From: Methanomassiliicoccaceae archaeon
Lineage (GTDB): Archaea > Thermoplasmatota > Thermoplasmata > Methanomassiliicoccales > Methanomethylophilaceae
DNA length: 64,000 bases
NCBI GenBank assembly: GCA_016284295.1
Contig: JAEEOP010000033.1
Span: 7,735-71,734, forward strand
Direction: 5' to 3'
Translations under genes and position numbers: made by a program
Part shown: positions 247 through 39,948 of the stretch, piece by piece
How the letters are laid out: the number at the start of each line of letters is the position of its first letter
How positions within the stretch are numbered: position 1 is the stretch's first letter
Notes under the pieces: generated by a model
What the model was told of the DNA's origin: nothing
Seen by the model: only the letters and a program-made list of their open reading frames with translations
Database searches by the model: none

Positions 247-1920
247 TTGGACGATCTTGTAATCGCATCAGCCATTTTGACGCTACTTGCAGGCATAGGG
301 GTTTTCCTTACAGCCTGCATCATGCTGAGTTCCAATTTGGAGTCCATGAGCAGCGGACGTCTCAAGAAGATGTTCACGAAGGCTTCCAAGAGCAAACTGT
401 ATGGTGTCGGTATCGGTGCCGTAGGTACGGCGGCCATCCAGAGTTCCGGAGCCATGACCGTCATGGTCATCGGATTCGTCAACGCGGGGATCATGGCCCT
501 GCCTCTGGCGGCCACGATCATCTACGGAGCGAACATCGGTACTACGATAACCGCCCAGCTTGCCGCCATCGGTATGTTCAGCGGCAATTCGATATCCCTT
601 GCCCTCATCTTCTCCGCATTCGCCGGTATCGGCGCCTTCGCGATGACCTTCGCCAAGAATGATTCCACCAAGCTCTGGGCCGGTGTCATCACAGGTTTCG
701 GTCTGCTTTTCGTTGGACTCACCATGATGGCATCCTCCATGTCGGAGTTCGCGGAGCTGCCTGAGGTCGTCGAGTTCCTCTCTTCGATAGACAATATCAT
801 CCTTCTCCTGCTGATCGGTATCGGTCTGACCGCGCTCGTCCAGAGCTCGTCGGTCGTGACCACGTTGGCCATCACCATGGTGGTCACCGGGCTCATCAAT
901 CTCGAGCAGGGTATCTATCTGACATTGGGATCCAACATCGGATCGTGTGTCGTCGCCATCATTGCCGGATTCTCCGGAGGGCTCAACGCCAAGAGGACAT
1001 CCGTCATACATCTTCTCTTCAACGTGTTCGGAGTGGTGATATTCGTCATCGCCGGATTCGTCATGGGAACGTTCGGGGTCCAGTACTCGGGTCTCTTCGA
1101 ATCCCTGTTCCCCGGAGCGCCGTCCACCCAGCTGGCCATGTTCCACACGTTCTTCAACGTGGTGACCGTCATAATCATGCTCCCGCTGACCAACAAGCTG
1201 ATCAACCTCGTCGTCAGGCTGGTCCCCGACAAAGGGGAGCCCGAGGAGACCGAGTTCATTCCAAAGCTCCACTTCCTGAACGAGTACATGCTCAGGACCC
1301 CGCCTCTTGCGGTCCAGCAGGTGATGAAAGAGGTACTCAACATGTCCGTCATAGCCATGGACAACTACCGCAAGGCATGCCACATGATCCGCACTATGGA
1401 CTTCTCGAAGGAGAACGAATTCTGCAACAACGAATAGGAGCTGAACTTCCTCAACAAGGAGATCGCCAGGTTCCTGGTCAAGCTGTCAGAGAACAAGCTC
1501 AGCGAGAGGGACCAGATATACATCTCCACGGTGTACCACACCATCTCGGACATGGAGCGCATAGGAGATTATTCCAAGAACATCATGGAGTACGCCAAGA
1601 AGATGGATGAGCTCGGATTCAAGTTCTCAGAGGTCGCACTCCAGGAGACCATGGTCATGGAGGGGCTGATCGATCAGCTCTACGACAAGATCGAGCAGGC
1701 ATACAGCGAATCCAACGAGACCGCTTTGGAGCAGGCGTACGACATCGAGGAGAACATAGACGTCGTGACCGAGGAGATGGCGGAGAACCATGTCAAGAGG
1801 CTCAACGAAGGCGTGTGCACCCTGGATGTCGGTTCGGAGTTCCTTGCGATGACCTCGGATTCCGAGAGGGTGGCGGACCACCTGATCAACATGGGCAAGG
1901 TAATCAGGCTGTACTCCTGA
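247..1920 (+). CDS. Na/Pi cotransporter family protein (NptA-like) with C-terminal PhoU domains; one in-frame TAG at 1435-1437 (probable Pyl)
   Basis: QSSGAMTV and QSSSVVT cotransporter repeats plus GANIGTT/GSNIG motifs; track ORFs 247..1437 and 1531..1920 are in one frame separated only by a TAG (NNE-TAG-ELNFLNKEIARFL...SDMERIGDYSKNI). Confidence 0.88.
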
Positions 1921-13035: not shown

Positions 13036-14109
13036 ATGGACAGGACGGGGACGGAAGACAGTACCAAGGATGGATATCTGAGGTACGCCCGCAGCAAATG
13101 GCTGTTCCTCATCGGAACGGCCGTTCTGCTGGCGATCCTTTCGGTATACACGATAGGTCTCGGTGCCACCGATCTCTCGTACTTGGACATCCTGAGATAC
13201 CTGTTCTTCCCGGACGATTCGTGGGACAGCACGGTGGTCTGGGATCTCCGCTTCAAGATGATCGTGGCGGCCATATTCGCCGGAGCGGCACTCGGTATCG
13301 CGGGAACCGTGATGCAGAGCATCCTGAGGAACCCGCTGGCCTCCCCGTTCACCTTAGGCCTGTCGAACGCTTCGGCGTTCGGCGCGGCACTGGCCATCCT
13401 CTTCATGGAGGGCGGTACCATCGTGGGGCAGACGGCCGCCTATGCGAACGTCAACAACCCCATCCTTGTCACCGTCATGGCGTTCGCCATGGCCATGATC
13501 GCCACCGGCATCATGCTCCTCCTTGTCAAGATGACCGAATGCACCCCGGAATCCATCGTCTTGGCAGGGTTGGCGATCAGCTCGATATTCTCCGCGGGAC
13601 TGGCGTTCCTGCAATACATGGCAAACGATGTCGCATTGTCCGCCATCGTTTTCTGGCAGTTCGGAAGCCTGAGCAAGGTAAGCTGGTCCAACCTGTACCT
13701 GGTAGGTGCCGTGCTGGTCCTCGTCGCACTGTACTTCATCCACAAGCGCTGGGATTACAACGCACTGGAGTCCGGGGAGGACGTGGCCGCCGGCGTGGGT
13801 GTGAACGTTGAGAGGACCCGCATCATCGGATTGGTCCTGTCCGCGGTTCTGACAGCCGTTGTGGTATCGTTCATGGGCGTGATCGGGTTCATAGGGCTGA
13901 TCGGCCCCCATATAGTCAAGAGGCTGATCGGCAACGACAGCAGGTACGTCCTGATAGGCTCCATGCTGATCGGGGCGCTTGTCCTGCTGTTGGCGTACAT
14001 AATAGGGTCGTACGCATTCTACACGGTCATACCGGTGGGCATAATCACATCGGCGATAGGCGGACCCCTGTTCATCCTCATCCTCATAGGGAGGCGCAGA
14101 AGAAGATGA
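13036..14109 (+). CDS. FecCD/BtuC-family ABC permease
   Basis: LRNPLASPFTLG, GEDVAAGVGVNV (EAA-like), GVIGFIGLIGPHIVKRLIG, IPVGIITSAIGGP. Confidence 0.92.
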   Translation: MDRTGTEDSTKDGYLRYARSKWLFLIGTAVLLAILSVYTIGLGATDLSYLDILRYLFFPDDSWDSTVVWDLRFKMIVAAIFAGAALGIAGTVMQSILRNPLASPFTLGLSNASAFGAALAILFMEGGTIVGQTAAYANVNNPILVTVMAFAMAMIATGIMLLLVKMTECTPESIVLAGLAISSIFSAGLAFLQYMANDVALSAIVFWQFGSLSKVSWSNLYLVGAVLVLVALYFIHKRWDYNALESGEDVAAGVGVNVERTRIIGLVLSAVLTAVVVSFMGVIGFIGLIGPHIVKRLIGNDSRYVLIGSMLIGALVLLLAYIIGSYAFYTVIPVGIITSAIGGPLFILILIGRRRRR

Positions 14110-15062
14110 TCGATGTGAAGGACATCAGGTTCTCGTACGGGAAGAACGAGGTGCTGAAGGGGATATCCTTCCAGTCGGAGCCCAACACTGTGATATCGAT
14201 ACTCGGCCCGAACGGTACCGGTAAGACTACCTTCCTGAGATGCATCACAGGGGCCCGCAGGCCCAGCTCCGGGTAGATCACCGTGGATGGCACGGACATC
14301 TTCGCCTTGTCGGGACGCGAATTGGCGAGGAAGATCGCATACGTTCCCCAAAGCGTCCCCGCATCCAGGATGTCCGTGTTCGACACCATACTGGTCGGCA
14401 GGAGGCCGTACATCGAATGGAGCGCGACCAAGAAGGACTTGGACCGCGTATCAGAGATAATCGACGCCCTGGGGATGTCGCACATCTCCCTGAAGTACAT
14501 GGACGAGATTAGCGGCGGGGAGTTCCAGAAGGCCCAGATCGCCAGAGCGATCGTGCAGGAGCCGTCGGTCCTGATCTTGGACGAACCGACGAACAATCTC
14601 GACATCTCCAACCAGCATCGCACAATGGGGATGATCATGGACATAGTCCGTTCGCGGGGGATGTGCACGATCATGACCATGCACGACATCAACCTGGCGG
14701 TGCATTACTCGGACAGACTCCTGTTCCTTAAGGACGGCAAGGTCGCGGCCTACGGAGGACAGGAGATCGTCACCCGGGAGCTGATAGAGGATGTGTACGG
14801 CGTCGAGGCCGATGTCATCCGCCACAGAGGGGTTCCCATGGTGGTCCCCAGATATTCGATAAAATATGACGATCATGATGATGGAGAACGATACGATGGC
14901 AGAGGACCCGGAGAGGCTTATGCACCCTGTAAGGAACGACCGCGACGCAGTGATCCGCGGAAAGTTCGGCGGATATATGACGGGGTTCGCAAACGCGATG
15001 ATACTGAGGACGTCCTTCCGTTTGGGGCTGTTCGACATTGCCGCCAGCCCGGTATCCGCTAA
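14106..15062 (+). CDS. ABC transporter ATP-binding protein; in-frame TAG at 14274-14276 (probable Pyl)
   Basis: ATG at 14106 overlaps the permease TGA; Walker A GPNGTGKTT precedes RPSSG-TAG-ITVDG, then ISGGEFQK, LILDEPT, TMHDIN in the same frame. Confidence 0.88.
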
Positions 15063-15933
15063 AGAGATCTCCGGAAAGGCAGGTCTGGATGCCGATCTGA
15101 CCGTGATGCTCTGCGACAGCCTGGTGCAGATGGGCCTGCTGGACGGGGTGGAAGGAGGATACGTGGATTCGGACGCTGCATCGGCATATCTCTGCCGCGA
15201 TTCAGACACCTATCAGGGCAACACGCTCAACGGGATGTTCGACAACATGGATGAATGGATGCACTTGGAGGAACGCCTCGTAATGGGTCCAAGATATGTC
15301 CACAGGGAGGAGATGTTCGGGGAGAAGTGGCTCCGGGCGATAGCCGAGTCGTGTCTCGATGGGAGCGTCGGTGCAATCGTCGACGAGATAGATTCCCGCG
15401 TGGATCTGTCAGGATACAGGACCCTTCTCGATCTCGGAGGAGGTCACGGTCTGCACTCGATAGGCCTGGTCCACAGGCATCCGAATCTGGAGGCAACCGT
15501 GTTCGATGTGCCGATGATGTGCCCGATAGCCATGAAGAACTCGGAGAGGTACGGCGTGCCCCTGCGTACGATCGCAGGCGACTTCTATAAGGACGATCTC
15601 GGTGGCCCTTACGATGTGGTGTACTCATCGTTCAATCTTTCCACATCGGACATCAGGATGGCCGACCGTGTCCACGGGGCGGTGGCAGACGGAGGCCTTC
15701 TGATTCTCCGCCGTCATCTGCCAGCGACATCGCAGGACAGCATCCGGAACTTGGAGTGGAGCCTCAGGACCTGGGACGGGAAGGGCAAGAAGAACTACGG
15801 GGGCTCATGGCTACCCACGGCGGAGGCCTACATCGACAAACTGATCGGTCTGGGCATGTCGATGCTCGTGAGGGAACAGATGGATGGATCATCCGAACTG
15901 GTCATCATGACGAAAAGTCCGATACATCCGTAA
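14866..15933 (+). CDS. SAM-dependent methyltransferase (Methyltransf_2 with dimerisation domain)
   Basis: LLDLGGGHG motif I, VFDVP, IAGDFYKD; N-terminal wHTH dimerisation region; start may be 14896. Confidence 0.85.
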   Translation: MTIMMMENDTMAEDPERLMHPVRNDRDAVIRGKFGGYMTGFANAMILRTSFRLGLFDIAASPVSAKEISGKAGLDADLTVMLCDSLVQMGLLDGVEGGYVDSDAASAYLCRDSDTYQGNTLNGMFDNMDEWMHLEERLVMGPRYVHREEMFGEKWLRAIAESCLDGSVGAIVDEIDSRVDLSGYRTLLDLGGGHGLHSIGLVHRHPNLEATVFDVPMMCPIAMKNSERYGVPLRTIAGDFYKDDLGGPYDVVYSSFNLSTSDIRMADRVHGAVADGGLLILRRHLPATSQDSIRNLEWSLRTWDGKGKKNYGGSWLPTAEAYIDKLIGLGMSMLVREQMDGSSELVIMTKSPIHP

Positions 15934-16937: not shown

Positions 16938-18554
16938 TCAGAACGACAGCCTGAGGTCGTCGTACTTGTACACTTTCTGGGGGCAGCTGAACTGGCATCT
17001 GTAGCATGCGGTACCGAGGCAGTTCTTGGTCTTGACCACGATCTTCTTGTCCTCCTGGACGGTGAGCGCGTGCTCGGGGCACTCCTTCTCGCACTTCTTG
17101 CACCCGGTGCAGCCTTCCATGTATCCGGTGAGCTCGGTACCGATGTCGTGGAGGATGTACAGTCCCCTCTCTCCCAGGTCGGGAATGTCACGCTGTACGA
17201 TTCTGTGGACCGTGGGCACGCCTTTCGGCCTGGGGAGCTCCTGGATGCCTGCGATGGCGTTGTTCCTGTTGTACATCTCCATGCTCATGCCCTCGTCACA
17301 CACGGCCAGCTCCTGGGTGTAGATCTGCTCGAAGATCTTGTCGCCTGCGAACATGATGTGGTTGGCCCTGATTCCGTTGGCGATGTCCTGGAGGGTGTCC
17401 AGGAGCTCGGGGTTCCTGAGGATGTCGGTGGCCATGGCCAGCGAGGTGTTACCGTACTGGTAGATGGTGTTGCATGACGGCGGCAGGAGACCGACCTCCC
17501 TTGCCTTCACAGCATCCACATAGGTTCCGGATGCCCCGGCCATGTACATGATGTCGAGGTCGCTGAACTTGATGCCCGCATGCTCCAGGAGGGTGAAGTG
17601 TCCCGCCCTCATCGCTCCGATCGCCTTCATGGCCTCGGAGATGTCATGCGAGTCGATGTAGATGCCGTCCTGCAGGTGGAGCAGTCCGTCGGAGGTCGTG
17701 AGCTTCCCCTTCTTCCAGAGGTGGCAGTCCAGTGCCGCGGCGACGGCGGCGATGACTCCGGTACCGGTGATACCGGTGGCCTTGCCGCTCATCGGCCCTT
17801 CGGGGGTGACGGACTCCAGGCCGAAGTCACATCTGGCCCCGTTCTCGGGGATGATGTCGTCGTTCAGGACCTTGCATATGTATTGGAAATCATATTCGAG
17901 ATCGGATATGGCGCCGGGTCCAGCGAGCATACCGTATTTGATGGACTGCCCTTCCATGGCCGGTCCCGCCGCCGCGGATCCCGTGTAGATGTCGTCCCCT
18001 ATCTTCAGGGCCATCTCGGCGTTGGTACCGTAATCCGTGACGAGGCAGTTCTCCTTCTGCTCGAGGAATCCGCTCTTGTACATCATGGCCAGCGCATCGG
18101 CGCCGATCTCGTGCCTGATCGCCGGGGGAACGCAGAGCTCGCATCCATCCCTGACATTCAGTCCGACATCCACTGCCGAGAAGACCCCGGCATCCCTTTT
18201 CTGCGCCACTATGCCTCTGGCCTTGTGCGCGTTCTCGCCCGCGAAGGCCAGGTCGTCCACCGGGATCCCTTGGAAGAGCGACAGCTGTATCGGGTTACCG
18301 CAGATGCTGACCCTCTCGACCTTGTTCAGGTCCACGCCGAGGGTGGCAATGAGCTTGTTGACGGTGTCGATCAGGATCTTGTGCGCCGTGTCCGTCCCTG
18401 CGTTTATGCAGAACGTTAGATGATCCATGATGTTCGCTCCGGGCAGCGGATGACATTCCGTGACGGAGGTTGATAGTATCTTGCCGTTCGAGAGGTCGAC
18501 GGCGTGCCCTCTTGTACCGCTCGTACCGATATCCAAAGAAATTCCTATACTCAT
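16938..18554 (-). CDS. ramA: Methyltransferase corrinoid protein reductive activase (RamA/RamM, ASKHA ATPase with C-terminal ferredoxin)
   Basis: SLDIGTSG, DYGTNAEMAL, SAAAGPAMEGQ, C-terminal CTGCKKCEKECP and CLGTACYRC; AGGTGG RBS before ATG at 18554. Confidence 0.92.
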   Translation of the reverse strand: MSIGISLDIGTSGTRGHAVDLSNGKILSTSVTECHPLPGANIMDHLTFCINAGTDTAHKILIDTVNKLIATLGVDLNKVERVSICGNPIQLSLFQGIPVDDLAFAGENAHKARGIVAQKRDAGVFSAVDVGLNVRDGCELCVPPAIRHEIGADALAMMYKSGFLEQKENCLVTDYGTNAEMALKIGDDIYTGSAAAGPAMEGQSIKYGMLAGPGAISDLEYDFQYICKVLNDDIIPENGARCDFGLESVTPEGPMSGKATGITGTGVIAAVAAALDCHLWKKGKLTTSDGLLHLQDGIYIDSHDISEAMKAIGAMRAGHFTLLEHAGIKFSDLDIMYMAGASGTYVDAVKAREVGLLPPSCNTIYQYGNTSLAMATDILRNPELLDTLQDIANGIRANHIMFAGDKIFEQIYTQELAVCDEGMSMEMYNRNNAIAGIQELPRPKGVPTVHRIVQRDIPDLGERGLYILHDIGTELTGYMEGCTGCKKCEKECPEHALTVQEDKKIVVKTKNCLGTACYRCQFSCPQKVYKYDDLRLSF

Positions 18555-18602
18555 CGTTACCACCTGACCTATCTGGTCTTTCTTATGTTTTTGTAATAGA
18601 AC

Positions 18603-18625
18603 CTAACATAAAAATGGTATGTTAG
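18603..18625. promoter_or_regulatory. Inverted repeat in ramA-mtaC intergenic region
   Basis: CTAACATA-N7-TATGTTAG perfect 8-bp arms. Confidence 0.5.
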
Positions 18626-18715
18626 ACAAGGCAACTTTTACCTGATGTTTAGTCAATTTTTTTGTTGTCATTGTCAATACTATATAAAACTTATATCCAA
18701 AGTATTTAAAGTTAC

Positions 18716-18777
18716 TGGGATATTTCATCCAACCAACCATTCCATTAAATAGTTTAGAAATACATCCAACTAACCAT
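18716..18777. promoter_or_regulatory. Operator-like repeats upstream of mtaC
   Basis: CATCCAACYAACCAT at 18726-18740 and 18763-18777; the first copy lies within TGGGAT-N5-ATCCAA. Confidence 0.55.
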
Positions 18778-18820
18778 AGGGAGTTCACGGCAGCCCCCTA
18801 GATAATAAGGAGGAAAATCA

Positions 18821-19600
18821 ATGATAGACTACTCTAAAGTAGACTTTTCTAAGATCCTCAAGCGTTACGACGTTGAGGGTCAGAACGAAATGACACCTGA
18901 GTCCGTGGCCAAGGCAATGCTGCCGAAGGACCCCGTCCTGTACAAGGTCGCCGAGTGCGTCCTGTACATGAAGTTCAAGGACGTGGGACCCGCGACCGCC
19001 GAGGCGCTGAAGACGAAAGATGCTCTTGATATCATCAACAACGGACTCGTCGTCGGAATGGAGTGTGTCGCGAAACTGTACGCAGAGCACATCTACTACC
19101 TGCCCGAGATCATGATGGCCGCAAAGACTATGGAGATCGGAATCGCACTCGCAGAGAAGCAGATCCCCGGTGGAAGGACGACAAAGGGAACCGTCGTCAT
19201 GCATGCCGCCGAAGGAGACCCCCACGACATCGGTAAGAACATCGCCGCCGTCATGATGAGGTCTTCCGGATACACCGTCGTCGACATGGGAAAGGATGTC
19301 GCAGTGGACGATGTCGTCGCCAAGGTGAAGGAGATCAAGCCCTTCATGGTGACCGGAACCGCGCTCATGACGACCACCATGACAGCATTCCCCCGCGCCG
19401 CAGCGAAGCTCGTCGCAGCCGGAATCAACATCCCGTTCATGGCAGCCGGAGGAGCAGTCAACAGGGACTTCTCGGAGTCCTTCGACCTCGGAATCTATTC
19501 CGAGAAGGCGCCTCAGACCCCGCCCATTGCGGACAAGATCCTTGAGGGATACGACTGGAGAAAGATCAGGGAAGAGTGGGACCACATCGTAGGAGAGTGA
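18821..19600 (+). CDS. mtaC: Methanol corrinoid protein
   Basis: EGDPHDIGKNI B12-binding motif (DxHxxG), GTALMTTT, AAGGAV; AGGAGG RBS. Confidence 0.93.
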   Translation: MIDYSKVDFSKILKRYDVEGQNEMTPESVAKAMLPKDPVLYKVAECVLYMKFKDVGPATAEALKTKDALDIINNGLVVGMECVAKLYAEHIYYLPEIMMAAKTMEIGIALAEKQIPGGRTTKGTVVMHAAEGDPHDIGKNIAAVMMRSSGYTVVDMGKDVAVDDVVAKVKEIKPFMVTGTALMTTTMTAFPRAAAKLVAAGINIPFMAAGGAVNRDFSESFDLGIYSEKAPQTPPIADKILEGYDWRKIREEWDHIVGE

Positions 19601-19605
19601 TTGTT

Positions 19606-20997
19606 ATGGCAAAGTACACAAAGATGGCATACGGCAGTGCGGAAGAGATGGTATTCGGACACGCGAAGGAGCCCGTCTCTTACGGTTTCGGAATCAAGGT
19701 CGGAGCAGGCAGGGTCATCCCCGAGCTGAACTACGGACCCAGGCCCGGATCCGAGGCGACACCCGAGAAACTCAGGAAGGAGTACGTCGACTACATCTCC
19801 AAGGATGTCCTCAACAGATGCGTCACCCTCGGATTCCCCGACGTCCAGCTGGAGACCGAGTGGATCTCCCAGATGGGAGACCCCAAGATGGCCACACCCG
19901 TGGTCGAGGGCCAGAAGGCAATCTGCGAGAAGTACTACGAGGAGTACGGACTGAACTGCGCCGTGAGGCAGACAATCCCCGACCAGCGTGAGGCGGAAGA
20001 GGGATACAGGCCCGGAATGGGCGGAAAGCACAGCTACCCCGAGCACCTGTTCCAGTGTGCTGAGGTCGCCTGTGAGAACGGAGCGGATGTCCTCTCGTGC
20101 GAGACCCTCGGAGGAAAGGAGCTCGGAGACTACGCGACCACGAACGGAGACATCGTCGCATTCCTGTTCGGAATCGGATACCTCGGTTCCATCGACATGG
20201 AGTACGTCTGGAAGCAGTTCGTCGATATCGCCAAGAAGAACAAGGTCATCGCCGGAGGAGACACCAACTGTTCCGGAGCCAACACCTCGATGTTCATGGC
20301 CGGCGGAATGCTGGACCAGGATGTCCAGAGGACCTACTCCGCGGTCACCCGTGCGATCTCCGCCGCAAGGACCCTTGTGGCATGGGAGCAGGGTGCATCC
20401 GGACCCGACAAGGACTGCGGTTACGAGGGACCCATCTGTAAGGCTATCGCAGGAAAGCCCTGCGCACAGGAGGGAAAGAACTGTCAGTGCGCCCACGCCG
20501 ATCTTCAGGGTAACCTGATGGCACAGGTCTGCGACCTCTGGTCCAACGAGTCCATCGAGTACCACCCCGAGTTCGGAGGAACCTCCGTCCAGTGCTGGAT
20601 GGGAAGCCTCGGATACGAGGTGGCCCTGATGAACACCGCCATCCAGACCGGCAAGCAGAAGGACCTCAGAGACCTCTACATGATCACCGACCGTGAGAGG
20701 GGACCCGAGGGACACATCCTCGCATACGACAACGCATATAAGATCGGAGAGGCTATCGTCTCTGAGGGCAACAACTACTACCTCAGGGCCAAGGCCGCCG
20801 GACTCACCGCCGCGAAGCTCATCAAGGACCACAACGACTCCAAGGAGCTCCAGCTGACCAGGAAGCAGAGGGAAGTCCTCGACTCTATCATCAAGGACCT
20901 CGAAGCTCTTCCGGATGATGAGGACAAGTTCTTCGAGTACTGCTGCAAGAAGTACGCGGACGTGCCCAACTTCAACCTGAAGAACTACGGTCTTTGA
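19606..20997 (+). CDS. mtaB: Methanol:corrinoid methyltransferase
   Basis: MAYGSAEEMVFGHAKEPVSYG, ENGADVLSCETLGGKE, GDTNCSGANT, GPDKDCGYEG, WSNESIEYHPEFGG. Confidence 0.95.
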   Translation: MAKYTKMAYGSAEEMVFGHAKEPVSYGFGIKVGAGRVIPELNYGPRPGSEATPEKLRKEYVDYISKDVLNRCVTLGFPDVQLETEWISQMGDPKMATPVVEGQKAICEKYYEEYGLNCAVRQTIPDQREAEEGYRPGMGGKHSYPEHLFQCAEVACENGADVLSCETLGGKELGDYATTNGDIVAFLFGIGYLGSIDMEYVWKQFVDIAKKNKVIAGGDTNCSGANTSMFMAGGMLDQDVQRTYSAVTRAISAARTLVAWEQGASGPDKDCGYEGPICKAIAGKPCAQEGKNCQCAHADLQGNLMAQVCDLWSNESIEYHPEFGGTSVQCWMGSLGYEVALMNTAIQTGKQKDLRDLYMITDRERGPEGHILAYDNAYKIGEAIVSEGNNYYLRAKAAGLTAAKLIKDHNDSKELQLTRKQREVLDSIIKDLEALPDDEDKFFEYCCKKYADVPNFNLKNYGL

Positions 20998-24353: not shown

Positions 24354-25219
24354 GCGGAGAATTGGATTGGAACGAGAGCTATTACTTCAACTTCTTCGAT
24401 GCGAAGCAGGCCCTCACGGCCTTCATGCGCATCGGCAACAAGCCTAACAGGAACGAGAAATCCGTGTTCCTATTCGTGATGAACAAGGACGGCGTGTTCG
24501 GCATCAGGAACACCGAGCCCTGCGACGAGAACAAGACCCTCTGCTCCGGACTCAGGTTCGAGAACAAGGGCGATGTCTGGAAGATCACCTACAACGGCCC
24601 CCTGTTCGACATGTCCAAGGAGCCTGTGCCCATCATGTCCTCGCTGGACATCGACTGGAGACCCGTCAACCCCGAGATGGACTACCACGACTGCGTGGAT
24701 GCCGCCGGGGAGGCCCTGTCCGCGAAGACCGCCTCGGAGCACTTCGAGCAGTTCGGAGTCGCCACCGGAAAGGTCGTCGTCGGTGATTCCTCATTCCAGG
24801 TCGAAGCGACGGGAGAGAGGGACAAGAGCGAGGGCGTCCGCGACTGGGGATCCCCCAAGATGTGGCTCTGGCTCAACTCCGTCTACGGCGCGGATCTCGG
24901 ATGGAACGCCACCAAGCTGTCCACGCAGATGGGGGATGTCGATGCTGGATTCGTCGGGACCAAGGACTGCAACGATCCCGTCGTCAAGATCGATATCGAC
25001 CTGGACTACGACGGTGCTATACCCAAGTCCTACAGGATGACCATGCATGGCAAGAGCGGCAAGTCCTACGATGTGGAGGCCAAGATCCTCAAGTACGCCC
25101 AGCTTCCGATGCAGGGCAGCAAGGACATGATGCTCATTGAGACCATCTCGCAGACCGTCATGGACGGCCGCACCGGTTTCGGAATCGCCGAGCTCCTGGT
25201 GCCCTCCAAGAGGGAGTGA
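24350..25219 (+). CDS. Uncharacterised beta-rich protein (DUF7064/7065- or AttH/CrtC-like), translationally coupled to the phosphotransferase
   Basis: ATGA overlap at 24350-24353; WNESYYFNFFD..RIGNKPN, HFEQFG..G....G, GERDKSEGVRDW motifs. Confidence 0.7.
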   Translation: MSGELDWNESYYFNFFDAKQALTAFMRIGNKPNRNEKSVFLFVMNKDGVFGIRNTEPCDENKTLCSGLRFENKGDVWKITYNGPLFDMSKEPVPIMSSLDIDWRPVNPEMDYHDCVDAAGEALSAKTASEHFEQFGVATGKVVVGDSSFQVEATGERDKSEGVRDWGSPKMWLWLNSVYGADLGWNATKLSTQMGDVDAGFVGTKDCNDPVVKIDIDLDYDGAIPKSYRMTMHGKSGKSYDVEAKILKYAQLPMQGSKDMMLIETISQTVMDGRTGFGIAELLVPSKRE

Positions 25220-25700: not shown

Positions 25701-26102
25701 TCAGATCGGCAGCTTGGTGCAGTTAGGCACCACTTTGTAGTTGTACTCGCAGAAGTAGACCTCTATATTCTGCCCCTTGTACTTCTCGAAGACCAGATGC
25801 CAGTTCTGGACGGGTATGTTGCCGCATATGACGGCGTTCACCTTCTTCCCCTCCGATAGCCTGTCGCCGATGAAGGCCTCCAACTCCCTGGGGAAGGTTA
25901 TCCTGTTGTCGGCCAGGAACTCGCGGTCCACCTTCAGGATTATGGAGTCAGGCTCCTGCCTTGCGATTTCGTCCAGGACTATCTGGATGAGAGTCTCCAT
26001 CCCTTCGGTCTTTATTCCGGATATGGCGGTGGGCTCCTTGGTGGCAACGAATCCTGCCACCAGCGGTCTTGGGTCGGTCTCGGGCGGTGTGGCGAAAACC
26101 AT
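25701..26102 (-). CDS. Hypothetical protein, tandem paralogue B
   Basis: 133 aa; collinear similarity to 26112..26513 (PPETDPRP, RLSEGK, G.IPV..W, CTKL). Confidence 0.75.
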   Translation of the reverse strand: MVFATPPETDPRPLVAGFVATKEPTAISGIKTEGMETLIQIVLDEIARQEPDSIILKVDREFLADNRITFPRELEAFIGDRLSEGKKVNAVICGNIPVQNWHLVFEKYKGQNIEVYFCEYNYKVVPNCTKLPI

Positions 26103-26111
26103 GGTATCACA

Positions 26112-26513
26112 TCATATGGTGAGCTTGGTGCAAAGCGGCACCTGACGGCAGGCCGCGGCGCAGTAGAAGACCTGCAGGTCCCTTCCTTTGAACTTCTGCA
26201 GCTCCAGGTTCCATCCGGAGACGGGAATGTCCCCTGCGATGATGAGGTTCAGCCTCTTCCCTTCGGACAGCCTCTTCTCAATGTAACCGGAGAAGTCCCT
26301 TGCGAACGTGATGTCCTCGTCGGACATCAGGTCCCTGTCCATTATGACTATGTTGGATCCGGGCTGCTGTCTGCTCAGCTCGTCGACGACGATTTGCATC
26401 AGGGCTTCCGTGCCTTCGGCCACAAGGCCTGCAAGGGCCTTGGCGTCATCATTGGATATGAATTCGGATACCTTCGGACGCGGGTCCGACTCAGGGGGAC
26501 AGGAGTTGACCAT
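26112..26513 (-). CDS. Hypothetical protein, tandem paralogue A
   Basis: 133 aa; same length and shared motifs as 25701..26102. Confidence 0.75.
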   Translation of the reverse strand: MVNSCPPESDPRPKVSEFISNDDAKALAGLVAEGTEALMQIVVDELSRQQPGSNIVIMDRDLMSDEDITFARDFSGYIEKRLSEGKRLNLIIAGDIPVSGWNLELQKFKGRDLQVFYCAAACRQVPLCTKLTI

Positions 26514-26580: not shown

Positions 26581-26718
26581 TCATTTCATCTTCTTCTTCA
26601 GCTTAGCGATCTTCTTCTTTGCTTCTCCATCGCCGGCATCTGCCTGCTTCTGGAGCTCAGCAAGTTCAGCTTTCTTGGCCTGTTGCTTCTTTTCGAGCTG
26701 TTTCTTGGACATCGGCAT
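26581..26718 (-). CDS. Small Lys-rich helical protein (45 aa)
   Basis: MPMSKKQLEKKQQAKKAELAELQKQADAGDGEAKKKIAKLKKKMK; AAGGAG-like RBS upstream; host-like codon usage. Confidence 0.6.
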   Translation of the reverse strand: MPMSKKQLEKKQQAKKAELAELQKQADAGDGEAKKKIAKLKKKMK

Positions 26719-26835
26719 TCTATACGCCTGCTCCTTGAATCCACGCACCCACGATAAATGTTGCCATCGGAAGGCCCCTATGTGAATCGGCATCAGTATG
26801 ATTATTATCGGCGATGGGATTCATCGCCCGTTAAC

Positions 26836-27831
26836 ATGGACGACCGGAACAGGGTGCTCACAGCCATAGTCGCGGCGATATTCGTCATCGCAGGTCTTGT
26901 AGTGTCGCAGAACTGCTACAGTCACGATGAGAATGATGATTGGACGGTGGGCGTCATGTGGCGCACCAACCAGTCGTCTGAGTCGTATGTGTATACATGC
27001 AGGGCCATCGAGGCGGCCGGCGGCAGCGTGGTCAAAGTCGGACAGATATTCTTCGACGACCTGGAGTATGACGGCAACGGAAAGCTGGTGAGCGGCATCA
27101 ACGAGATAGGTTATCTCGATCAGGAAACGGCCGACAAGGTGAAAGGCGCAGATTGGCATCGCTCTAACATCGAGGAGGCGCTAGCAGGGGTGGATTTCGT
27201 AGTGTTCCCTGGCGGGGACGATATCAGCCCCTCCCTGTACAAGATTCCACAGGAATGGGTGGACAGCGGAGAGGACAGGGCTTTCGACCCGGAGAGGGAC
27301 GTCTCTGACTACTTGGCGATGAAATATTGCTTGGAGAAGGACATCCCGCTGGTCGGAATATGCAGGGGGATGCAGTTCCTATTCGTGGTCTCCGGTGCGG
27401 AGATGGCTCAGGACATTCCCGCATATTTCAGGGAGCATTTGTCCGATGATAGGGATACGCACAGGAATCCTATGCCCTCGCAGGGAGGGTACAGGGACTA
27501 CTCTTTTCATGACGTCGTTCTGGAGACGGGATCCTGCATCCATGGCATTATGGGCAAGGAGCTACTGACAGGATGTCCTTCATGGCACCATCAGGCTGTT
27601 CTGAACGTCGACAACACGTAGCTGAAGGTCACGGGATACACCGAGACCGACGGCATCAGAATCATCGAATCCGTTGAGAGAACCGACAAAACGTGTGCGT
27701 TCGGAGTCCAGTACCATCCAGAGGCCGCGGTCTGCAAGATCCTCGACGATCTTCCCAACAAGGATGATTACATGAGCTACGAGGATGCAATGAGACTGTT
27801 CGAATGGATCGTGGATTACGGACGATCCTGA
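26836..27831 (+). CDS. Peptidase C26 / class I glutamine amidotransferase (gamma-glutamyl hydrolase-like) with N-terminal anchor; in-frame TAG at 27619-27621 (probable Pyl)
   Basis: FPGGDDISP, GICRGMQ nucleophile elbow and SWHHQAV before the TAG; GVQYHPE catalytic His-Glu only after it; TGA at 27829-27831. Confidence 0.85.
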
Positions 27832-35890: not shown

Positions 35891-36995
35891 TGTACATCTT
35901 CCCCCTTATGAACAGAAGGTAGGCGAACACAGGCACGCCTATCAAAGTAGTAATGGCTCCCACAGGGAGCTCGTTTCCAGGAATTATCATTCTCGCCGCC
36001 AGGTCTGCGGCCATCATCAGCACGCCTCCCAGGGCTATCGATCCCGGGAGCACCAGGCGGTGGTCGCCTCCGAACAGCATACGGCACAGGTGGGGCACCA
36101 CCAGTCCGACGAAACCGATGATACCGCAGAACGCGACGCAGAAGGCCGTCATTATGGACGCCAGGGTAAGGATCATGGCGTTGAACCTCTTCACGTTCAG
36201 GCCCATCTGCCTCGCCTGTCCCTCTCCCAGAAGCACCAGGTTCATCTCCTTGGCGTACCTGAAGATGAACAGGCTGATTATGATCACAGGGATCAGGATG
36301 AAGATCGCCTTCTCCCAGGTGATGTTAGAGAAGGATCCGAACAGCCACAGCATGACGTTGGAGACCTTGTTCCCCGAGAACACGATCATTATTGTCTGGG
36401 CGGCACCGAACACCAGTCCGATGACGACTCCCGACAGGACGTAGGCGTTGGTCGTTCCTCCGGCGCGGAGGGCCAGGGCCATGGTGAGCAGGAACGCGAC
36501 CAGTCCTCCCACGATCGCCGCCACGGCGATCAGGTAGATCGAGTATGCGGACATCAGTCCGAAGAACGTGAAGTCGAATGCGATCACGGCTATCGCCAGG
36601 GTGCCCGCTCCCGAGGACACTCCCATGATGTACGGGTCCACGAGCGGGTTCCTGATGACGGCCTGATAGGCCGCACCGGCTACGGACAGTCCCAATCCGA
36701 CGGCCAGGGCCGCTATCGCCCTGGGCGTGCGCGAGCTGTAGATCAGGATCTCGTCCGGGCTCATGACCGAGCCGTCCTTCCCTATGGCCGAGAACAGGCT
36801 CGTCAGCGCCGTTATCGGATCCACGATCTTCGTGGGTCCGATGCATAGCATCGCCAGGAACATTATCACGGAGAGGACGGTCCCCAGGAGCACTATCATC
36901 TTCATCCTGTGCCTCTTCCTCTGCATGTGGGTATCGCCGCCTCCGTCCAGGAAGCGCTTGGCGGATGCCCTGAAGCTCCTTTCCTCGTCAGACAT
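35883..36995 (-). CDS. FecCD/BtuC-family permease
   Basis: IRNPLVDPYIMGVSSGA, GEGQARQMG, GFVGLVVPHLCR, ELPVGAIT. Confidence 0.92.
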   Translation of the reverse strand: MSDEERSFRASAKRFLDGGGDTHMQRKRHRMKMIVLLGTVLSVIMFLAMLCIGPTKIVDPITALTSLFSAIGKDGSVMSPDEILIYSSRTPRAIAALAVGLGLSVAGAAYQAVIRNPLVDPYIMGVSSGAGTLAIAVIAFDFTFFGLMSAYSIYLIAVAAIVGGLVAFLLTMALALRAGGTTNAYVLSGVVIGLVFGAAQTIMIVFSGNKVSNVMLWLFGSFSNITWEKAIFILIPVIIISLFIFRYAKEMNLVLLGEGQARQMGLNVKRFNAMILTLASIMTAFCVAFCGIIGFVGLVVPHLCRMLFGGDHRLVLPGSIALGGVLMMAADLAARMIIPGNELPVGAITTLIGVPVFAYLLFIRGKMYNG

Positions 36996-39948
36996 CGTAA
37001 CTCCTCCCTCTCTTGATCAGGAGATATGCGAACACGGGCACTCCTATCGCGGTCGTTATCGCCCCCACGGGGAGCTCGTAACCAGATAGCAGCACCCTGG
37101 ACAATAGGTCGGCCGCTACCATCAGGAATCCTCCGAAGGCCATCGTCGCAGGGAGCATCAGGCGGTGGTCACCGCCCAGGATCATCCTGCTGAGGTGGGG
37201 AATGACCAGTCCCACGAATCCTATGACTCCGCAGAATGCCACGCAGAACGACGTGAGCACGGATGCTATGATCAGCATGACCGCATCGAAGCGCTTGGCG
37301 TTCAGACCCATCTGCTTGGCCTGGTCCTCTCCCAAGAGGATCAGGTTGAACTCCTTTGCCCAAATCAGCGGGATCATGGACAGGAACATGGCGGGGATTA
37401 GCACCAGCCACACCTTGTCCCATGTCATGGTGCTGAACGATCCGTACAGCCAGGACAGGGCGCTGGACACCTTGGTCCCCGCACCTATCATCAGCAGCGA
37501 CTGCACGGCAGAGAACACCAGTCCTATGACTATTCCGGCTAGGACGTAGTTGATCGATTTGCCTCCGGTCTTCATCGCCAGCAGCATCGTCAGTCCGAAG
37601 GCCAGGAGACCTCCGAAGATCGCAGAGAATGCGGTGAGGTAGATGCTGTTGGCCGCGAAGAGGCCGAAGAACGTGAAATTGAATGTAAGGACTGCCACGG
37701 CGAACGTTCCCGCTCCCGAGGACACTCCCATGATGTAAGGCTCCACCAGAGGGTTCTTGATGACCGCCTGATACATCGCACCTGCAACAGATAATCCGAT
37801 ACCGACTCCGATGGCGGCGAGGACACGGGGCAGACGCTGGTTGTAGATCAGCATCTCCTCATACGTCAGATTGTGCCCGCCCTTGCTTATAGCGGATATC
37901 GCCGCGTTGACGGCATCGCCTATGCTCATGGTGGTCTCCGACCCGACGCACAGCGATACAAGCGAGATGGCCACGGTGATCACCACTCCGAAGAGCACCA
38001 CTGCACGCACCTTGCGCTTGCTCTTTTTGTTGTGCGTGTATTCGGCCCCGAAGAAGAAGTGCATGATGTGCGCACGGAGGTCGCTGAACGGATGCTCCCA
38101 CTTCAGCGCGAATCTCAGGACGATCCAGAGCGCGATCAGGAAGATGACCAGCCCAATCAGGACGTACATTATGATCTTCCACAGTCCGTCGTCCGTCGGA
38201 ACGGGCGTTGGGGGCGCATACTCCGGATAGTTGGCGTAGAACGTTTGAAGGCCGGTATCATCTGATACCAGGACAAGTCCGTCAATGACAACGGGTCCGA
38301 CCATCGCGTAGTTGCTGATGCCGGAATTCAGTCCGATCCTGCCGGTGGACAGGTCGTACGACACCGTGCTCTTGGAGCCGTAGGTGGTCATGTACAGGAT
38401 CTCGCCGTTGACCAGCACGGGCGTGCTGTGGAGGCTGTGGTATCCTGAGATGAAATCCGTGAGAAGAGTTGCGTCACCGTTCTCATCCACCTTGTAGAGT
38501 CCTTTGTAGAATCCTATTATGATCCCTTTGAAACTGTCGGTCTCGTATCTTGTGGAGTATGTACCGGTGTTCCCGAGGGTGGTCTTGAAGTCCTTAACGA
38601 GCTTGGTTATCTTCTCCTTTGCATCGAAGGTGTAGATCACCAGGCTGCTGTATTTGGAATCCATTCCGAGACCGTCGGAGCATGTGATGAATACGGTGTA
38701 TAGATCGTCTCCATCCTTGTAGACCTGGGAGACGTTCGCGGATCCGCACTTGCCCTTGAAGTCCTCGGTCTGATAGACGACCTGGCTGGTGATAAGTTCA
38801 CCAGTGGCCTGATCGATGATGTACAGGGTTCCGTCGTAGCATCCTGCGAAGACGTATCCGTCGAAGACGGTCGGAGTGGAATAGTAGGTGTGCCCGCCCA
38901 TCTGGTAGGACCATACGAGGTTCAGGTCGCTGTCGAAGCAGTAGCACATACCGTTGTATCCCTTGACGTAGATGGAACCGGAATCCGCTACCATGGAGGT
39001 GATGATGCTGGTGTAGGAGACGTACCAATCGATGTCTATGGTCTTCTCGGGGATGACAGCCTTCTCGTCATCGTAGGGTGCACCGCCGATGGTGGTCACG
39101 TTGCAGTAGTTGTCGCCAGGCCCTTCCCTCCAATCGAACTTGTAGATATGCCCGTTATTGCTTCCGACATACACGTACTGGCCCATGACGCAGGCGGAGG
39201 TGGTGTCCATCATCTTGGCGTAGAACTCGAAGGACCAGATCTCTTCCCCGGTCTCTATATCGAATGCCTTGACGCCCGCGTTCCCGGTGGTACCCGATGC
39301 CGCTCCGAATTTGGCGATGACCATGTCCCTGGTGACCAGGACCCCTCCGTACAGTCCGGCCGGGTCGGGTCCGCCGAATTTGGGCATGACCTCCCAGGAC
39401 CTTCCGGACTTGTCGGTCTTGTACTCGGTGGTCTGGTTCGCGCTGTTCCAGGAATCTCCCTCGATGGCCGTCCAGGAGGACTTGCGGTCGGGGGTCTCTA
39501 CGGGGATGAGGTCCTCAGGATAGAAACCGACGGCGACCGGCGATCCGTCGTAAGAGGATGAGAGGTCGCTCTTCACCCACTCCGATCCGGACCAGATGTA
39601 GAAGTTCCATCCGCTGGTCTGCTTGACTCCGGTGGCACCGGGGAGGGACAGGGATCCGCCGGTGGATTCGGTACCGATGGTGACCTCGGATATGCCGTCG
39701 ATGGTCTTCAGGTCCTCGGAATACGGGATCGATGCAGCCTTCAGCGACGATGCGATGGTGGATGATAGGTCCTCGCCCTTCTCCAGTGCTATCCAGGTTG
39801 TTCTACCGTTCCCGTAATCGACCAGGAAGTCCCCTCCGTAGACATCGCCTTCTGCGGCAGACGTCTCATCGGACAGGAACTGGAGCGGGAATACGGCTAT
39901 AGCCGCAACTAGGATTGCCAGGATGATGCGGCGGTCCATCTCACTCAC
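36988..39948 (-). CDS. Fusion: signal anchor + beta-grasp-like domain + PQQ-type beta-propeller + FecCD/BtuC permease
   Basis: Repeats such as AFDIETGEEIWS, CFDSDLNLVWSYQ and IIDQATGE indicate a propeller; C-terminal ~330 aa carries IKNPLVEPYIMGVSSGA and GFVGLVIPHLSR. Confidence 0.88.
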   Translation of the reverse strand: MSEMDRRIILAILVAAIAVFPLQFLSDETSAAEGDVYGGDFLVDYGNGRTTWIALEKGEDLSSTIASSLKAASIPYSEDLKTIDGISEVTIGTESTGGSLSLPGATGVKQTSGWNFYIWSGSEWVKSDLSSSYDGSPVAVGFYPEDLIPVETPDRKSSWTAIEGDSWNSANQTTEYKTDKSGRSWEVMPKFGGPDPAGLYGGVLVTRDMVIAKFGAASGTTGNAGVKAFDIETGEEIWSFEFYAKMMDTTSACVMGQYVYVGSNNGHIYKFDWREGPGDNYCNVTTIGGAPYDDEKAVIPEKTIDIDWYVSYTSIITSMVADSGSIYVKGYNGMCYCFDSDLNLVWSYQMGGHTYYSTPTVFDGYVFAGCYDGTLYIIDQATGELITSQVVYQTEDFKGKCGSANVSQVYKDGDDLYTVFITCSDGLGMDSKYSSLVIYTFDAKEKITKLVKDFKTTLGNTGTYSTRYETDSFKGIIIGFYKGLYKVDENGDATLLTDFISGYHSLHSTPVLVNGEILYMTTYGSKSTVSYDLSTGRIGLNSGISNYAMVGPVVIDGLVLVSDDTGLQTFYANYPEYAPPTPVPTDDGLWKIIMYVLIGLVIFLIALWIVLRFALKWEHPFSDLRAHIMHFFFGAEYTHNKKSKRKVRAVVLFGVVITVAISLVSLCVGSETTMSIGDAVNAAISAISKGGHNLTYEEMLIYNQRLPRVLAAIGVGIGLSVAGAMYQAVIKNPLVEPYIMGVSSGAGTFAVAVLTFNFTFFGLFAANSIYLTAFSAIFGGLLAFGLTMLLAMKTGGKSINYVLAGIVIGLVFSAVQSLLMIGAGTKVSSALSWLYGSFSTMTWDKVWLVLIPAMFLSMIPLIWAKEFNLILLGEDQAKQMGLNAKRFDAVMLIIASVLTSFCVAFCGVIGFVGLVIPHLSRMILGGDHRLMLPATMAFGGFLMVAADLLSRVLLSGYELPVGAITTAIGVPVFAYLLIKRGRSYDV

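What the first reader, a model, noticed from the sequence alone, without database searches (positions are those of the whole stretch)
27619..27621. Amber codon splits the catalytic triad of a membrane-anchored C26/GATase hydrolase
Seen: the nucleophile motif GICRGMQ lies before the TAG and the His-Glu motif GVQYHPE lies after it; the frame ends at TGA 27829-27831. Activity therefore needs read-through. This is the third such case in 64 kb, which suggests broad use of Pyl in this genome. The N-terminal TM anchor is also unusual for a family that is normally cytoplasmic.
Basis: partly seen in the sequence, partly recalled or inferred. Interest (0 to 1): 0.62.

Follow-up and report, generated by a model that had tools for sequence, protein, structure and literature searches.

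The report
Strain-level pyrrolysine codon in exported hydrolase
A rumen methane-producing archaeon that appears to read every TAG "stop" as the rare amino acid pyrrolysine carries a recent serine-to-TAG change at a variable loop of an exported gamma-glutamyl hydrolase gene; this is an ordinary example of an already described genetic code, not a new mechanism.

Summary
Gene 26836-27831 (+) has 331 codons, and TAG is codon 262. It lies between the nucleophile Cys176 (GICRGMQ) and His294/Glu296 (QYHPE).

The host is a Methanomethylophilaceae archaeon. In this window none of about 60 genes ends in TAG, and all three in-frame TAGs sit inside Pfam domains. The TAG in the Na/Pi transporter is shared with a diverged relative, and pN/pS is 0.12 on both sides of it. 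TAG is therefore translated in this lineage, which is the published "Genetic Code 34" pattern (all TAG read as pyrrolysine).

The C26 TAG is young and polymorphic within the species. Other strains carry Ser at this codon: TCG, which is one step from TAG, or TCT. The TAG allele is confirmed in several independent assemblies and on two haplotypes. The position is variable across homologues (Arg, Pro, Asp, Ala, Ser and others) and lies in a loop before a beta-strand.

The N-terminal anchor is not unusual for this group: 118 of 121 homologues have a signal or anchor segment.

One caveat applies. The window's haplotype carries six nonsynonymous and two synonymous private changes, including S183F and S224F at conserved small-residue sites, and another strain has a frameshift. 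The gene may therefore be under relaxed constraint.

Verdict: a new member of a known kind, of low interest.

The parts
26836..27831 (+). Exported or membrane-anchored Peptidase C26 / class-I glutamine-amidotransferase-like gamma-glutamyl hydrolase gene: 331 codons with one in-frame TAG, monocistronic, flanked by minus-strand genes.
   Evidence: PF07722 4e-32. (2379 homologues; P0002 is 97% identical and full length). (AF2 pLDDT 88.6; Foldseek hit to PuuD 6vtv, E 5e-16).
26842..26919 (+). N-terminal hydrophobic helix (residues 3-28; core LTAIVAAIFVIAGLVV), which is a signal-anchor or signal peptide. It is followed by a low-confidence acidic linker (residues 28-37).
   Evidence: helix 3-28; pLDDT below 50 at residues 28-33. 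(118 of 121 homologues have such a segment; 16 are lipobox-like).
27361..27363 (+). TGC encoding Cys176, the catalytic nucleophile in GICRGMQ.
   Evidence: Invariant in 120 of 120 homologues.
27619..27621 (+). In-frame TAG, codon 262, most likely read as pyrrolysine. It derives from Ser TCG by a C->A change at 27620.
   Evidence: Alleles in other strains are TCG (X6, X12) and TCT (X4, X5, X8, X11, X28, L001, L102). The TAG is also present in L101. The column is variable: R87, P12, D4, A4, H3 and others.
27715..27723 (+). CAT-CCA-GAG encoding His294-Pro-Glu296, the rest of the catalytic triad, downstream of the TAG.
   Evidence: Invariant in 120 of 120 homologues.
27829..27831 (+). TGA, the true terminator of the gene.
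   Evidence: It is at the same end as the full-length orthologues.
27383..27506 (+). Private nonsynonymous changes of the window's haplotype: 27383 S183F, 27440 S202L, 27506 S224F. Further ones lie at 27526 (A231T), 26905 (A24S) and 26932 (D33N). All are GC->AT.
   Evidence: Positions 183 and 224 hold almost only small residues in the 120 homologues (183: S/A/G/T; 224: P/S/A plus one L and one R), and Phe occurs only in the window.
1435..1437 (+). Context: in-frame TAG in the Na/Pi cotransporter-PhoU gene. It is conserved in a diverged relative.
   Evidence: TAG/TAG at the same column, pS about 0.5-0.6, and pN/pS 0.12 both before and after the TAG.
14274..14276 (+). Context: in-frame TAG in an ABC-transporter ATPase, inside the ABC_tran domain.

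Best explanation
The window comes from a rumen or gut Methanomethylophilaceae archaeon (order Methanomassiliicoccales). In this lineage TAG no longer ends genes and is translated, almost certainly as pyrrolysine by tRNA-Pyl/PylRS. This is the published 'Genetic Code 34'.

Codon 262 of an exported or membrane-anchored C26 gamma-glutamyl hydrolase (Cys176-His294-Glu296) changed recently from Ser TCG to TAG by one C->A transversion. The ribosome therefore makes the full 331-residue protein with Pyl in a variable loop just before a beta-strand. The position is not part of the catalytic triad. No special recoding signal is needed or present.

The change is a near-neutral, or mildly deleterious, strain-level missense polymorphism and not a regulatory device.

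Shown here:
- The TAG is real and polymorphic.
- The site is variable across homologues.
- TAG is translated in this lineage (the Na/Pi gene).
- No gene in the window ends in TAG.

Inferred:
- The inserted residue is Pyl.
- pylTSBCD is present in this genome.
- The Pyl262 enzyme is still active.
- The catalytic domain faces outward.
For: 1. Taxon. The window's DNA ligase is 88-93% identical to those of several Methanomassiliicoccales/Thermoplasmata MAGs, two of them named Methanomethylophilaceae. MtaB, MtaC and RACo genes are in the window.

2. Code.
- All 58 genes I called end in TGA (52) or TAA (6), and none has a TAG near its end.
- The only in-frame TAGs in coding frames are three, and all lie inside Pfam domains.
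- No gene is split by TGA or TAA.

3. Translation past TAG in this lineage. The Na/Pi TAG is shared with L103 at pS about 0.5-0.6, and pN/pS is 0.12 both upstream and downstream of it.

4. Pyl machinery in the family.
- More than 120 PylRS clusters were found, many named Methanomethylophilaceae.
- pylS-pylC-pylD lie beside TAG-split mtmB genes.

5. Literature.
- All three Methanomassiliicoccales genomes analysed carry pylTSBCD.
- M. alvus has 1.6% TAG stops and 16 non-methyltransferase Pyl candidates (PMC4153887).
- Proteomics shows Pyl at TAG in M. alvi, and most new Pyl sites are singletons in one genome or genus (10.1101/2024.09.30.615893).

6. The site.
- It is Ser in the 97%-identical P0002.
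- It is variable in 120 homologues.
- It lies between strands 254-257 and 263-271 of a confident model.

7. Intact downstream sequence. The window and L001 differ downstream of the TAG by 6 synonymous and 1 nonsynonymous change.

8. Persistence. The TAG is seen on two haplotypes and in several samples.

9. No RNA signal. There is no PYLIS-like structure downstream (z = -1.16), consistent with context-free decoding.
Against: - No pyl gene or tRNA-Pyl is in the window.
- The window's haplotype has 6 private nonsynonymous and 2 synonymous changes in this gene, all GC->AT. They include S183F, seven residues after the nucleophile, and S224F, at positions that hold almost only small residues in the 120 homologues. 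Fisher's test gives p = 0.016 against 8 nonsynonymous and 23 synonymous between two other strains.
- The gene's dN/dS against L102 (0.26) is the highest among its neighbours, whose mean is 0.10.
- One other strain has a 1-nt deletion in the gene.
- Together these suggest relaxed constraint, so the Pyl262 protein may be impaired or the gene dispensable.
- There is no protein-level evidence, and no RNA contig covers the TAG.
Confidence: 0.72

Rival explanations
1. The gene is decaying or dispensable. Either the TAG partly terminates translation through competition with aRF1, or Pyl262 together with S183F and S224F cripples the enzyme. On this view the window's copy is a young pseudogene or hypomorph that only looks intact because too little time has passed.
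For: - The window's branch has 6 private nonsynonymous and 2 synonymous changes, all GC->AT, which is typical of unfiltered new mutations (Fisher p = 0.016).
- Phe replaces almost uniformly small residues at positions 183 and 224.
- The gene has the highest dN/dS among its neighbours.
- An independent 1-nt deletion occurs in strain L102.
- GC3 is lower than in housekeeping genes (0.70 against 0.82-0.87), as expected for an accessory or acquired gene.
- Kivenson et al. note that RF1 is retained in all genomes they examined.
Against: - TAG is translated in this lineage, and no window gene uses it as a stop.
- This copy has no second lesion; the ORF is otherwise open to the orthologous TGA.
- The 69 downstream codons carry no private nonsynonymous change.
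- The TAG allele persists on two haplotypes and in several samples.
- The counts are small and the test was post hoc.
- The L102 deletion sits in a single low-coverage contig and may be an error.
Confidence: 0.2
2. The TAG is a plain nonsense mutation read as a stop. The 261-residue product lacks His and Glu and is dead.
For: Under the standard code this is what the sequence says, and gene callers annotate a 261-aa product. pyl genes were not shown in this genome.
Against: - Zero of about 60 genes end in TAG. At the 11% TAG-stop usage of the non-recoded relative M. luminyensis (PMC4153887), the chance of that is about 0.001.
- All three TAGs lie inside domains, and no gene is broken by TGA or TAA.
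- The Na/Pi TAG is conserved, with equal purifying selection on both sides.
- The family-wide Pyl machinery is documented (PMC4153887).
Confidence: 0.05
3. Sequencing or assembly artefact at 27620.
For: None beyond the low depth (3-5x) in the runs that hold this strain.
Against: The same TAG is present in contigs of X1, X2 and X7, in two JGI assemblies and one NCBI assembly, and in a different haplotype from another ENA sample.
Confidence: 0.01

Closest known systems
Singleton 'Category 1' pyrrolysine sites in Genetic Code 34 archaea (Kivenson et al., bioRxiv 10.1101/2024.09.30.615893; earlier Borrel et al. 2014, PMC4153887, for 'Ca. Methanomethylophilus alvus')
   Same: - An internal TAG has homologous sequence on both sides and an extension of more than 15 aa.
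- The host is a gut methyl-reducing methanogen of the same family.
- TAG is absent as a terminator, and there is no PYLIS.
- The site is not conserved beyond one species, as reported there for nearly all non-methyltransferase Pyl sites.
   Different: - This protein family (exported C26 hydrolase) is not named in the main text of those papers. The supplementary tables are not held, so I could not check them.
- Here the Ser/TAG state is seen segregating within one species, with the one-step TCG intermediate present.
- Pyl itself is not shown here.
PuuD / SpuA / Lin1909 gamma-glutamyl hydrolases (Peptidase C26, class-I GATase fold; PDB 6vtv, 7d4r, 3fij)
   Same: - Pfam PF07722 hit at 112 bits.
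- Cys-His-Glu triad in the same motifs.
- Predicted fold matches 6vtv (E 5e-16, target-normalised TM 0.73).
   Different: - Only about 21-23% identity over the structural alignment.
- Well below the NCBIfam PuuD equivalog cut-off (50 against 266 bits).
- It has an N-terminal signal or anchor and an extra roughly 70-residue N-terminal part.
- It is probably extracytoplasmic, and its substrate is unknown.
Uncharacterised exported 'gamma-glutamyl-gamma-aminobutyrate hydrolase family' proteins of gut Firmicutes (for example Butyrivibrio, Schwartzia, Clostridia MAGs)
   Same: 46-54% identity over about 90% of the length, the same N-terminal signal, lipobox or anchor architecture, and the same invariant residues.
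   Different: They are bacterial, read by the standard code, and have Arg at the position equivalent to 262.

Membership tests
Peptidase C26 / class-I glutamine amidotransferase-like hydrolase | Profile match above the curated threshold | tested here: met
   PF07722: 112.2 bits against a cut-off of 20.5. PF00117: 45.8 against 22.8.
Peptidase C26 / class-I glutamine amidotransferase-like hydrolase | Nucleophile Cys in G-x-C-x-G-x-Q, and His-x-Glu near the C-terminus | tested here: met
   Cys176, His294 and Glu296 are invariant in 120 of 120 homologues. His and Glu are present only if the TAG is decoded.
Peptidase C26 / class-I glutamine amidotransferase-like hydrolase | Class-I GATase alpha/beta fold | tested here: met
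   AF2 model pLDDT 88.6. Foldseek best hits are PuuD 6vtv (E 5e-16), Lin1909 3fij and SpuA 7d53.
PuuD (gamma-glutamyl-GABA hydrolase) equivalog | Score above the NCBIfam equivalog cut-off | tested here: not met
   NF008471 scores 50 bits against a cut-off of 266. It is a family member but not a PuuD orthologue.
Peptidase C26 / class-I glutamine amidotransferase-like hydrolase | Gamma-glutamyl amide hydrolase activity | not testable with these tools
   Needs an enzyme assay.
Genetic Code 34 'Category 1' Pyl-containing gene | Internal TAG with more than 30% identity to known proteins on both sides and an extension of more than 15 aa | tested here: met
   97% identity (P0002) down to 46-54% identity (Firmicutes homologues) on both sides, with a 69-codon extension.
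Genetic Code 34 'Category 1' Pyl-containing gene | Genome uses only TGA and TAA as stops (few or no Category 4 cases) | tested here: inconclusive
   Met for the 64-kb window: 52 TGA, 6 TAA and 0 TAG terminators, and 3 internal TAGs.
Genetic Code 34 'Category 1' Pyl-containing gene | Sequence after TAG is translated in this lineage | tested here: met
   The Na/Pi gene has its TAG conserved against L103, with pN/pS 0.12 before and 0.12 after it.
Genetic Code 34 'Category 1' Pyl-containing gene | pylT, pylS and pylBCD present in the same genome | not testable with these tools
Relatives of the family have the cluster (PMC4153887).
Genetic Code 34 'Category 1' Pyl-containing gene | Pyl detected at the site by mass spectrometry | not testable with these tools
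   Needs proteomics.
Pseudogene | A further disabling lesion (frameshift, or a TGA/TAA stop) in this copy | tested here: not met
   The ORF is open from 26836 to the orthologous TGA apart from the TAG.
Pseudogene | Relaxed selective constraint on this lineage | tested here: inconclusive
   6 nonsynonymous and 2 synonymous private changes, p = 0.016 against the background. The numbers are small, the test was post hoc, and the downstream part has no private nonsynonymous change.

The most novel reading that the evidence does not exclude
The TAG makes synthesis of the active exported hydrolase depend on the supply of charged tRNA-Pyl. In this strain the enzyme would then be made in proportion to pyrrolysine synthesis, that is, to growth on methylamines. 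On this reading the allele is shared by two haplotypes because selection or recombination spreads it, so it would be a natural Pyl-gated gene rather than a neutral missense change.
Probability: 0.04. Interest if true: 0.55.

Novelty: new member of a known kind. Interest (0 to 1): 0.2.

Why it matters
It adds one more protein family, an exported C26 gamma-glutamyl hydrolase, to the list of proteins that carry pyrrolysine in archaea that read TAG as a sense codon. Standard annotation truncates this gene to a 261-aa fragment.

The modest extra value is at the population level. The Ser(TCT), Ser(TCG) and TAG alleles coexist in one rumen species, so this is a caught-in-the-act example of how new Pyl codons enter genes after a code change. 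There are hints that such entries may occur in weakly constrained accessory genes.

It does not reveal a new mechanism.

Tried and rejected
- The search for related loci with the C26 protein in genome contigs found no relative. In metagenome contigs it found only two 60%-identical loci with no shared synteny.
- I tried to link a pyl cluster to this strain by laying runs X1, X2, X3 and X7 on a relative's pylS-pylC-pylD locus.
- The Kivenson et al. supplements are not held, so I could not check whether this protein family is in their tables.
- A control for branch-specific N:S in the flanking genes by read laying over 10 kb was truncated to 40 of 454 variants. I used pairwise dN/dS against L102 instead.
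- PYLIS-like structure: none found.
- RNA runs: contigs of species alleles exist, but none covers the TAG or belongs to the window's haplotype.
- Sequencing error: rejected.
- The ORF start at 26758 proposed by a plain ORF listing was rejected in favour of 26836, which matches the orthologues.

Full report
**Observation**

- The ORF starts at ATG 26836. That is the start used by the 97%-identical orthologue P0002, not the upstream ATG at 26758.
- It runs for 331 codons to TGA 27829-27831, with a single in-frame TAG at 27619-27621 (codon 262).
- Cys176 (TGC 27361-27363, GICRGMQ) lies before the TAG. His294 and Glu296 (27715-27723, QYHPE) lie after it.
- Pfam Peptidase_C26 matches at 4e-32 across the TAG (residues 110-296). 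The 69 residues after the TAG alone still hit GATase/C26.
- An AlphaFold model (pLDDT 88.6) matches E. coli PuuD, Listeria Lin1909 and Pseudomonas SpuA (Foldseek E 5e-16 to 1e-13; sequence-level hits).
- The protein is far below the PuuD equivalog cut-off. It is a C26 family member with unknown substrate.

**Is the TAG real?**

Yes.
- Contigs from three runs of one study (X1, X2, X7) carry the window's sequence over the site with no differences.
- The exact 261-aa truncated product is called on contigs of two JGI assemblies and one NCBI assembly. These are 99.98-100% identical to the window over 8-21 kb, so they are the same strain.
- A second, different haplotype from another ENA assembly (L101) has the same AAC ACG TAG CTG. 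It differs from the window at 11 amino-acid positions upstream, and by two synonymous changes in the 17 nt available downstream.

**What other strains have**

- The 90%-identity protein cluster holds 14 sequences. Nine are full length (331 aa). Three are TAG-truncated: two distinct haplotypes, one of them called twice with different start codons. The remaining two are the halves of one frameshifted gene.
- Reads and contigs from other sheep, goat and gut metagenomes show Ser at codon 262 in two forms. AAC ACG TCG CTG (X6, X12) is one C->A step from TAG. GGC ACA TCT TTG occurs in X4, X5, X8, X11, X28, L001 and L102.
- The TAG is therefore a young, within-species polymorphism derived from Ser.
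- Across 120 homologues the column is variable: Arg 87, Pro 12, Asp 4, Ala 4, His 3, and single or double cases of Gln, Asn, Ser and Lys. The flanking Thr261 and Leu263 are nearly or fully invariant.
- In the model the residue sits in the turn between strands 254-257 and 263-271.

**The organism and its code**

- The window's ATP-dependent DNA ligase is 88-93% identical to those of several Methanomassiliicoccales/Thermoplasmata MAGs, two of them named Methanomethylophilaceae. All of the roughly 80 best loci appear to be Methanomassiliicoccales.
- The window also holds MtaB, MtaC and RACo, as expected for a methyl-reducing methanogen.
- With a self-trained codon model I called 58 genes. 52 end in TGA, 6 in TAA and none in TAG, and none has a TAG near its C-terminus.
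- The only TAGs in good coding frames are three: the Na/Pi cotransporter-PhoU gene (1435), an ABC ATPase (14274) and this gene. Each lies inside a Pfam domain match.
- No gene is split by TGA or TAA. The in-frame continuations after TGA are separate neighbouring genes.
- If TAG ended 11% of genes, as in the non-recoded relative M. luminyensis (PMC4153887), none in about 60 would have a probability of about 0.001.

The strongest evidence from within this lineage is the Na/Pi gene.
- A relative (L103) that has diverged to pS of about 0.5-0.6 keeps TAG at the same codon.
- The 160 codons after it have pN/pS 0.12, identical to the 367 codons before it.
- Sequence after a TAG is therefore translated in this lineage.

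This matches the published picture.
- Borrel et al. 2014 (PMC4153887) found pylTSBCD in all three Methanomassiliicoccales genomes they analysed. They also found 1.6% TAG stops and 16 extra Pyl candidates in 'Ca. M. alvus'.
- Kivenson et al. (bioRxiv 10.1101/2024.09.30.615893) showed by proteomics that M. alvi reads TAG as Pyl.
- They proposed Genetic Code 34 and predicted 1903 Pyl proteins. Nearly all non-methyltransferase sites were singletons in one genome or genus, probably neutral, with no PYLIS needed.
- I found no significant RNA structure after this TAG (z = -1.16).
- PylRS is ubiquitous in the family, and in relatives it sits in a pylS-pylC-pylD cluster beside TAG-split mtmB genes.

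**The N-terminal anchor**

- Residues 3-28 form a hydrophobic helix followed by a disordered acidic linker.
- This is not a peculiarity of this gene. 118 of the 121 closest homologues, both archaeal and Firmicutes, have an N-terminal hydrophobic segment, and 16 have a lipobox-like motif.
- The whole subfamily is therefore probably exported or surface-anchored, unlike the characterised cytoplasmic PuuD and SpuA.
- The substrate is unknown. An extracellular gamma-glutamyl amide (folyl-polyglutamate, gamma-glutamyl peptides or amines) is an inference from family chemistry only.

**A caveat: possible relaxed constraint**

I polarised the window's haplotype against eight or more other alleles.
- Eight substitutions besides the TAG are private to it. 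Six are nonsynonymous (A24S, D33N, S183F, S202L, S224F, A231T) and two are synonymous.
- All nine changes, counting the TAG, are GC->AT.
- Against 8 nonsynonymous and 23 synonymous differences between two other strains, this gives Fisher p = 0.016.
- Positions 183 and 224 hold almost only small residues in the 120 homologues (183: S/A/G/T; 224: P/S/A plus one L and one R). Phe occurs only here, and position 183 is seven residues after the nucleophile.
- The gene's dN/dS against strain L102 (0.26) is the highest among ten neighbouring genes, whose mean is 0.10.
- L102 itself carries a 1-nt deletion at codon 162.
- GC3 is lower than in housekeeping genes, which fits an accessory or acquired gene.

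Points against over-reading this signal:
- The density of private changes is the same outside the gene: 10 per 996 nt inside against 6 per 701 nt outside.
- The 69 downstream codons have no private nonsynonymous change.
- The numbers are small and the test was post hoc.

I therefore keep a 20% rival in which the copy is a hypomorph or a young pseudogene even though the TAG is decoded.

**Verdict**

Read-through is needed and Pyl use is broad, but this is the known Code 34 situation. The site is a recent, variable-position Ser->Pyl polymorphism, and the anchor is the norm for the subfamily.
- Novelty: a new member of a known kind.
- Interest: low (0.2). The small added value is a within-species snapshot of a TAG codon entering a weakly constrained gene.
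- Metatranscriptome contigs show that alleles of this gene are transcribed in gut samples, but none covers the TAG.
- Two earlier notes on this window (the Na/Pi and ABC ATPase TAGs) agree. I re-tested the first, and re-tested the second only to the extent of the domain match.

Noticed in passing
L102:3360-3370 (equivalent to window 27316-27325): In another strain (a Logan contig of a public run) the same C26 gene has a 1-nt deletion (GCG ATG AAA -> GCG TGA AA) at codon 162. This splits it into 161-aa and 166-aa calls. It is either a real frameshift, which would suggest the gene is dispensable, or a low-coverage contig error.
   Followed up: partly
window 25701-26102 and 26112-26513 (minus strand): Two tandem paralogous 133-aa genes with no Pfam match lie directly upstream of the C26 gene and are conserved in all strains seen. 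A lysine-rich 55-aa ORF (26581-26748, minus strand) follows them.
   Followed up: no
window 36988-39948 (minus strand): A 986-aa protein fuses a PQQ-like beta-propeller region (residues about 314-447) to a FecCD-type ABC permease domain (residues 658-979). This is an unusual architecture. It sits beside a second FecCD permease and an ABC ATPase.
   Followed up: no
window 24763-24979: A dense cluster of about 25 substitutions separates the window from all four other strains examined, inside the DUF7064 gene. Most recur every third base (24763, 24766, 24778, 24781, 24784 and so on), so they look mostly synonymous. It resembles a recombination tract from a more divergent lineage (dS 0.21 against 0.07-0.14 in most of the neighbouring genes).
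   Followed up: partly
window 26836-27831: The C26 gene has lower GC3 (0.70) and a lower codon-model score than housekeeping genes (GC3 0.82-0.87). Its 60%-identical archaeal orthologue (L085) shows none of the window's neighbouring genes within the 2 kb fetched on either side. Outside a small group of N-terminally anchored relatives (54-64% identical, most of unknown taxon), the next homologues are at 46-54% and those that carry names are gut Firmicutes. This is compatible with acquisition by lateral transfer.
   Followed up: partly
window 14106-15062: The ABC ATPase ORF with the in-frame TAG (codon 57) runs about 50 codons past the usual end of such proteins and overlaps the next ORF (14866-15933) out of frame. 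The true 3' end is unclear.
   Followed up: no
window 16938-20997: A methanol methyltransferase set lies here: RACo/RamA-like activase (minus strand), MtaC (18821-19600) and MtaB (19606-20997). This confirms a methyl-reducing methanogen.
   Followed up: no
L087 and L091-L095 (relatives' pyl loci): In Methanomethylophilus-like relatives, two mtmB copies, each split by its Pyl TAG into roughly 201-aa and 219-244-aa calls, lie directly upstream of pylS-pylC-pylD. A gap of 160-200 nt before pylS could hold pylT.
   Followed up: no
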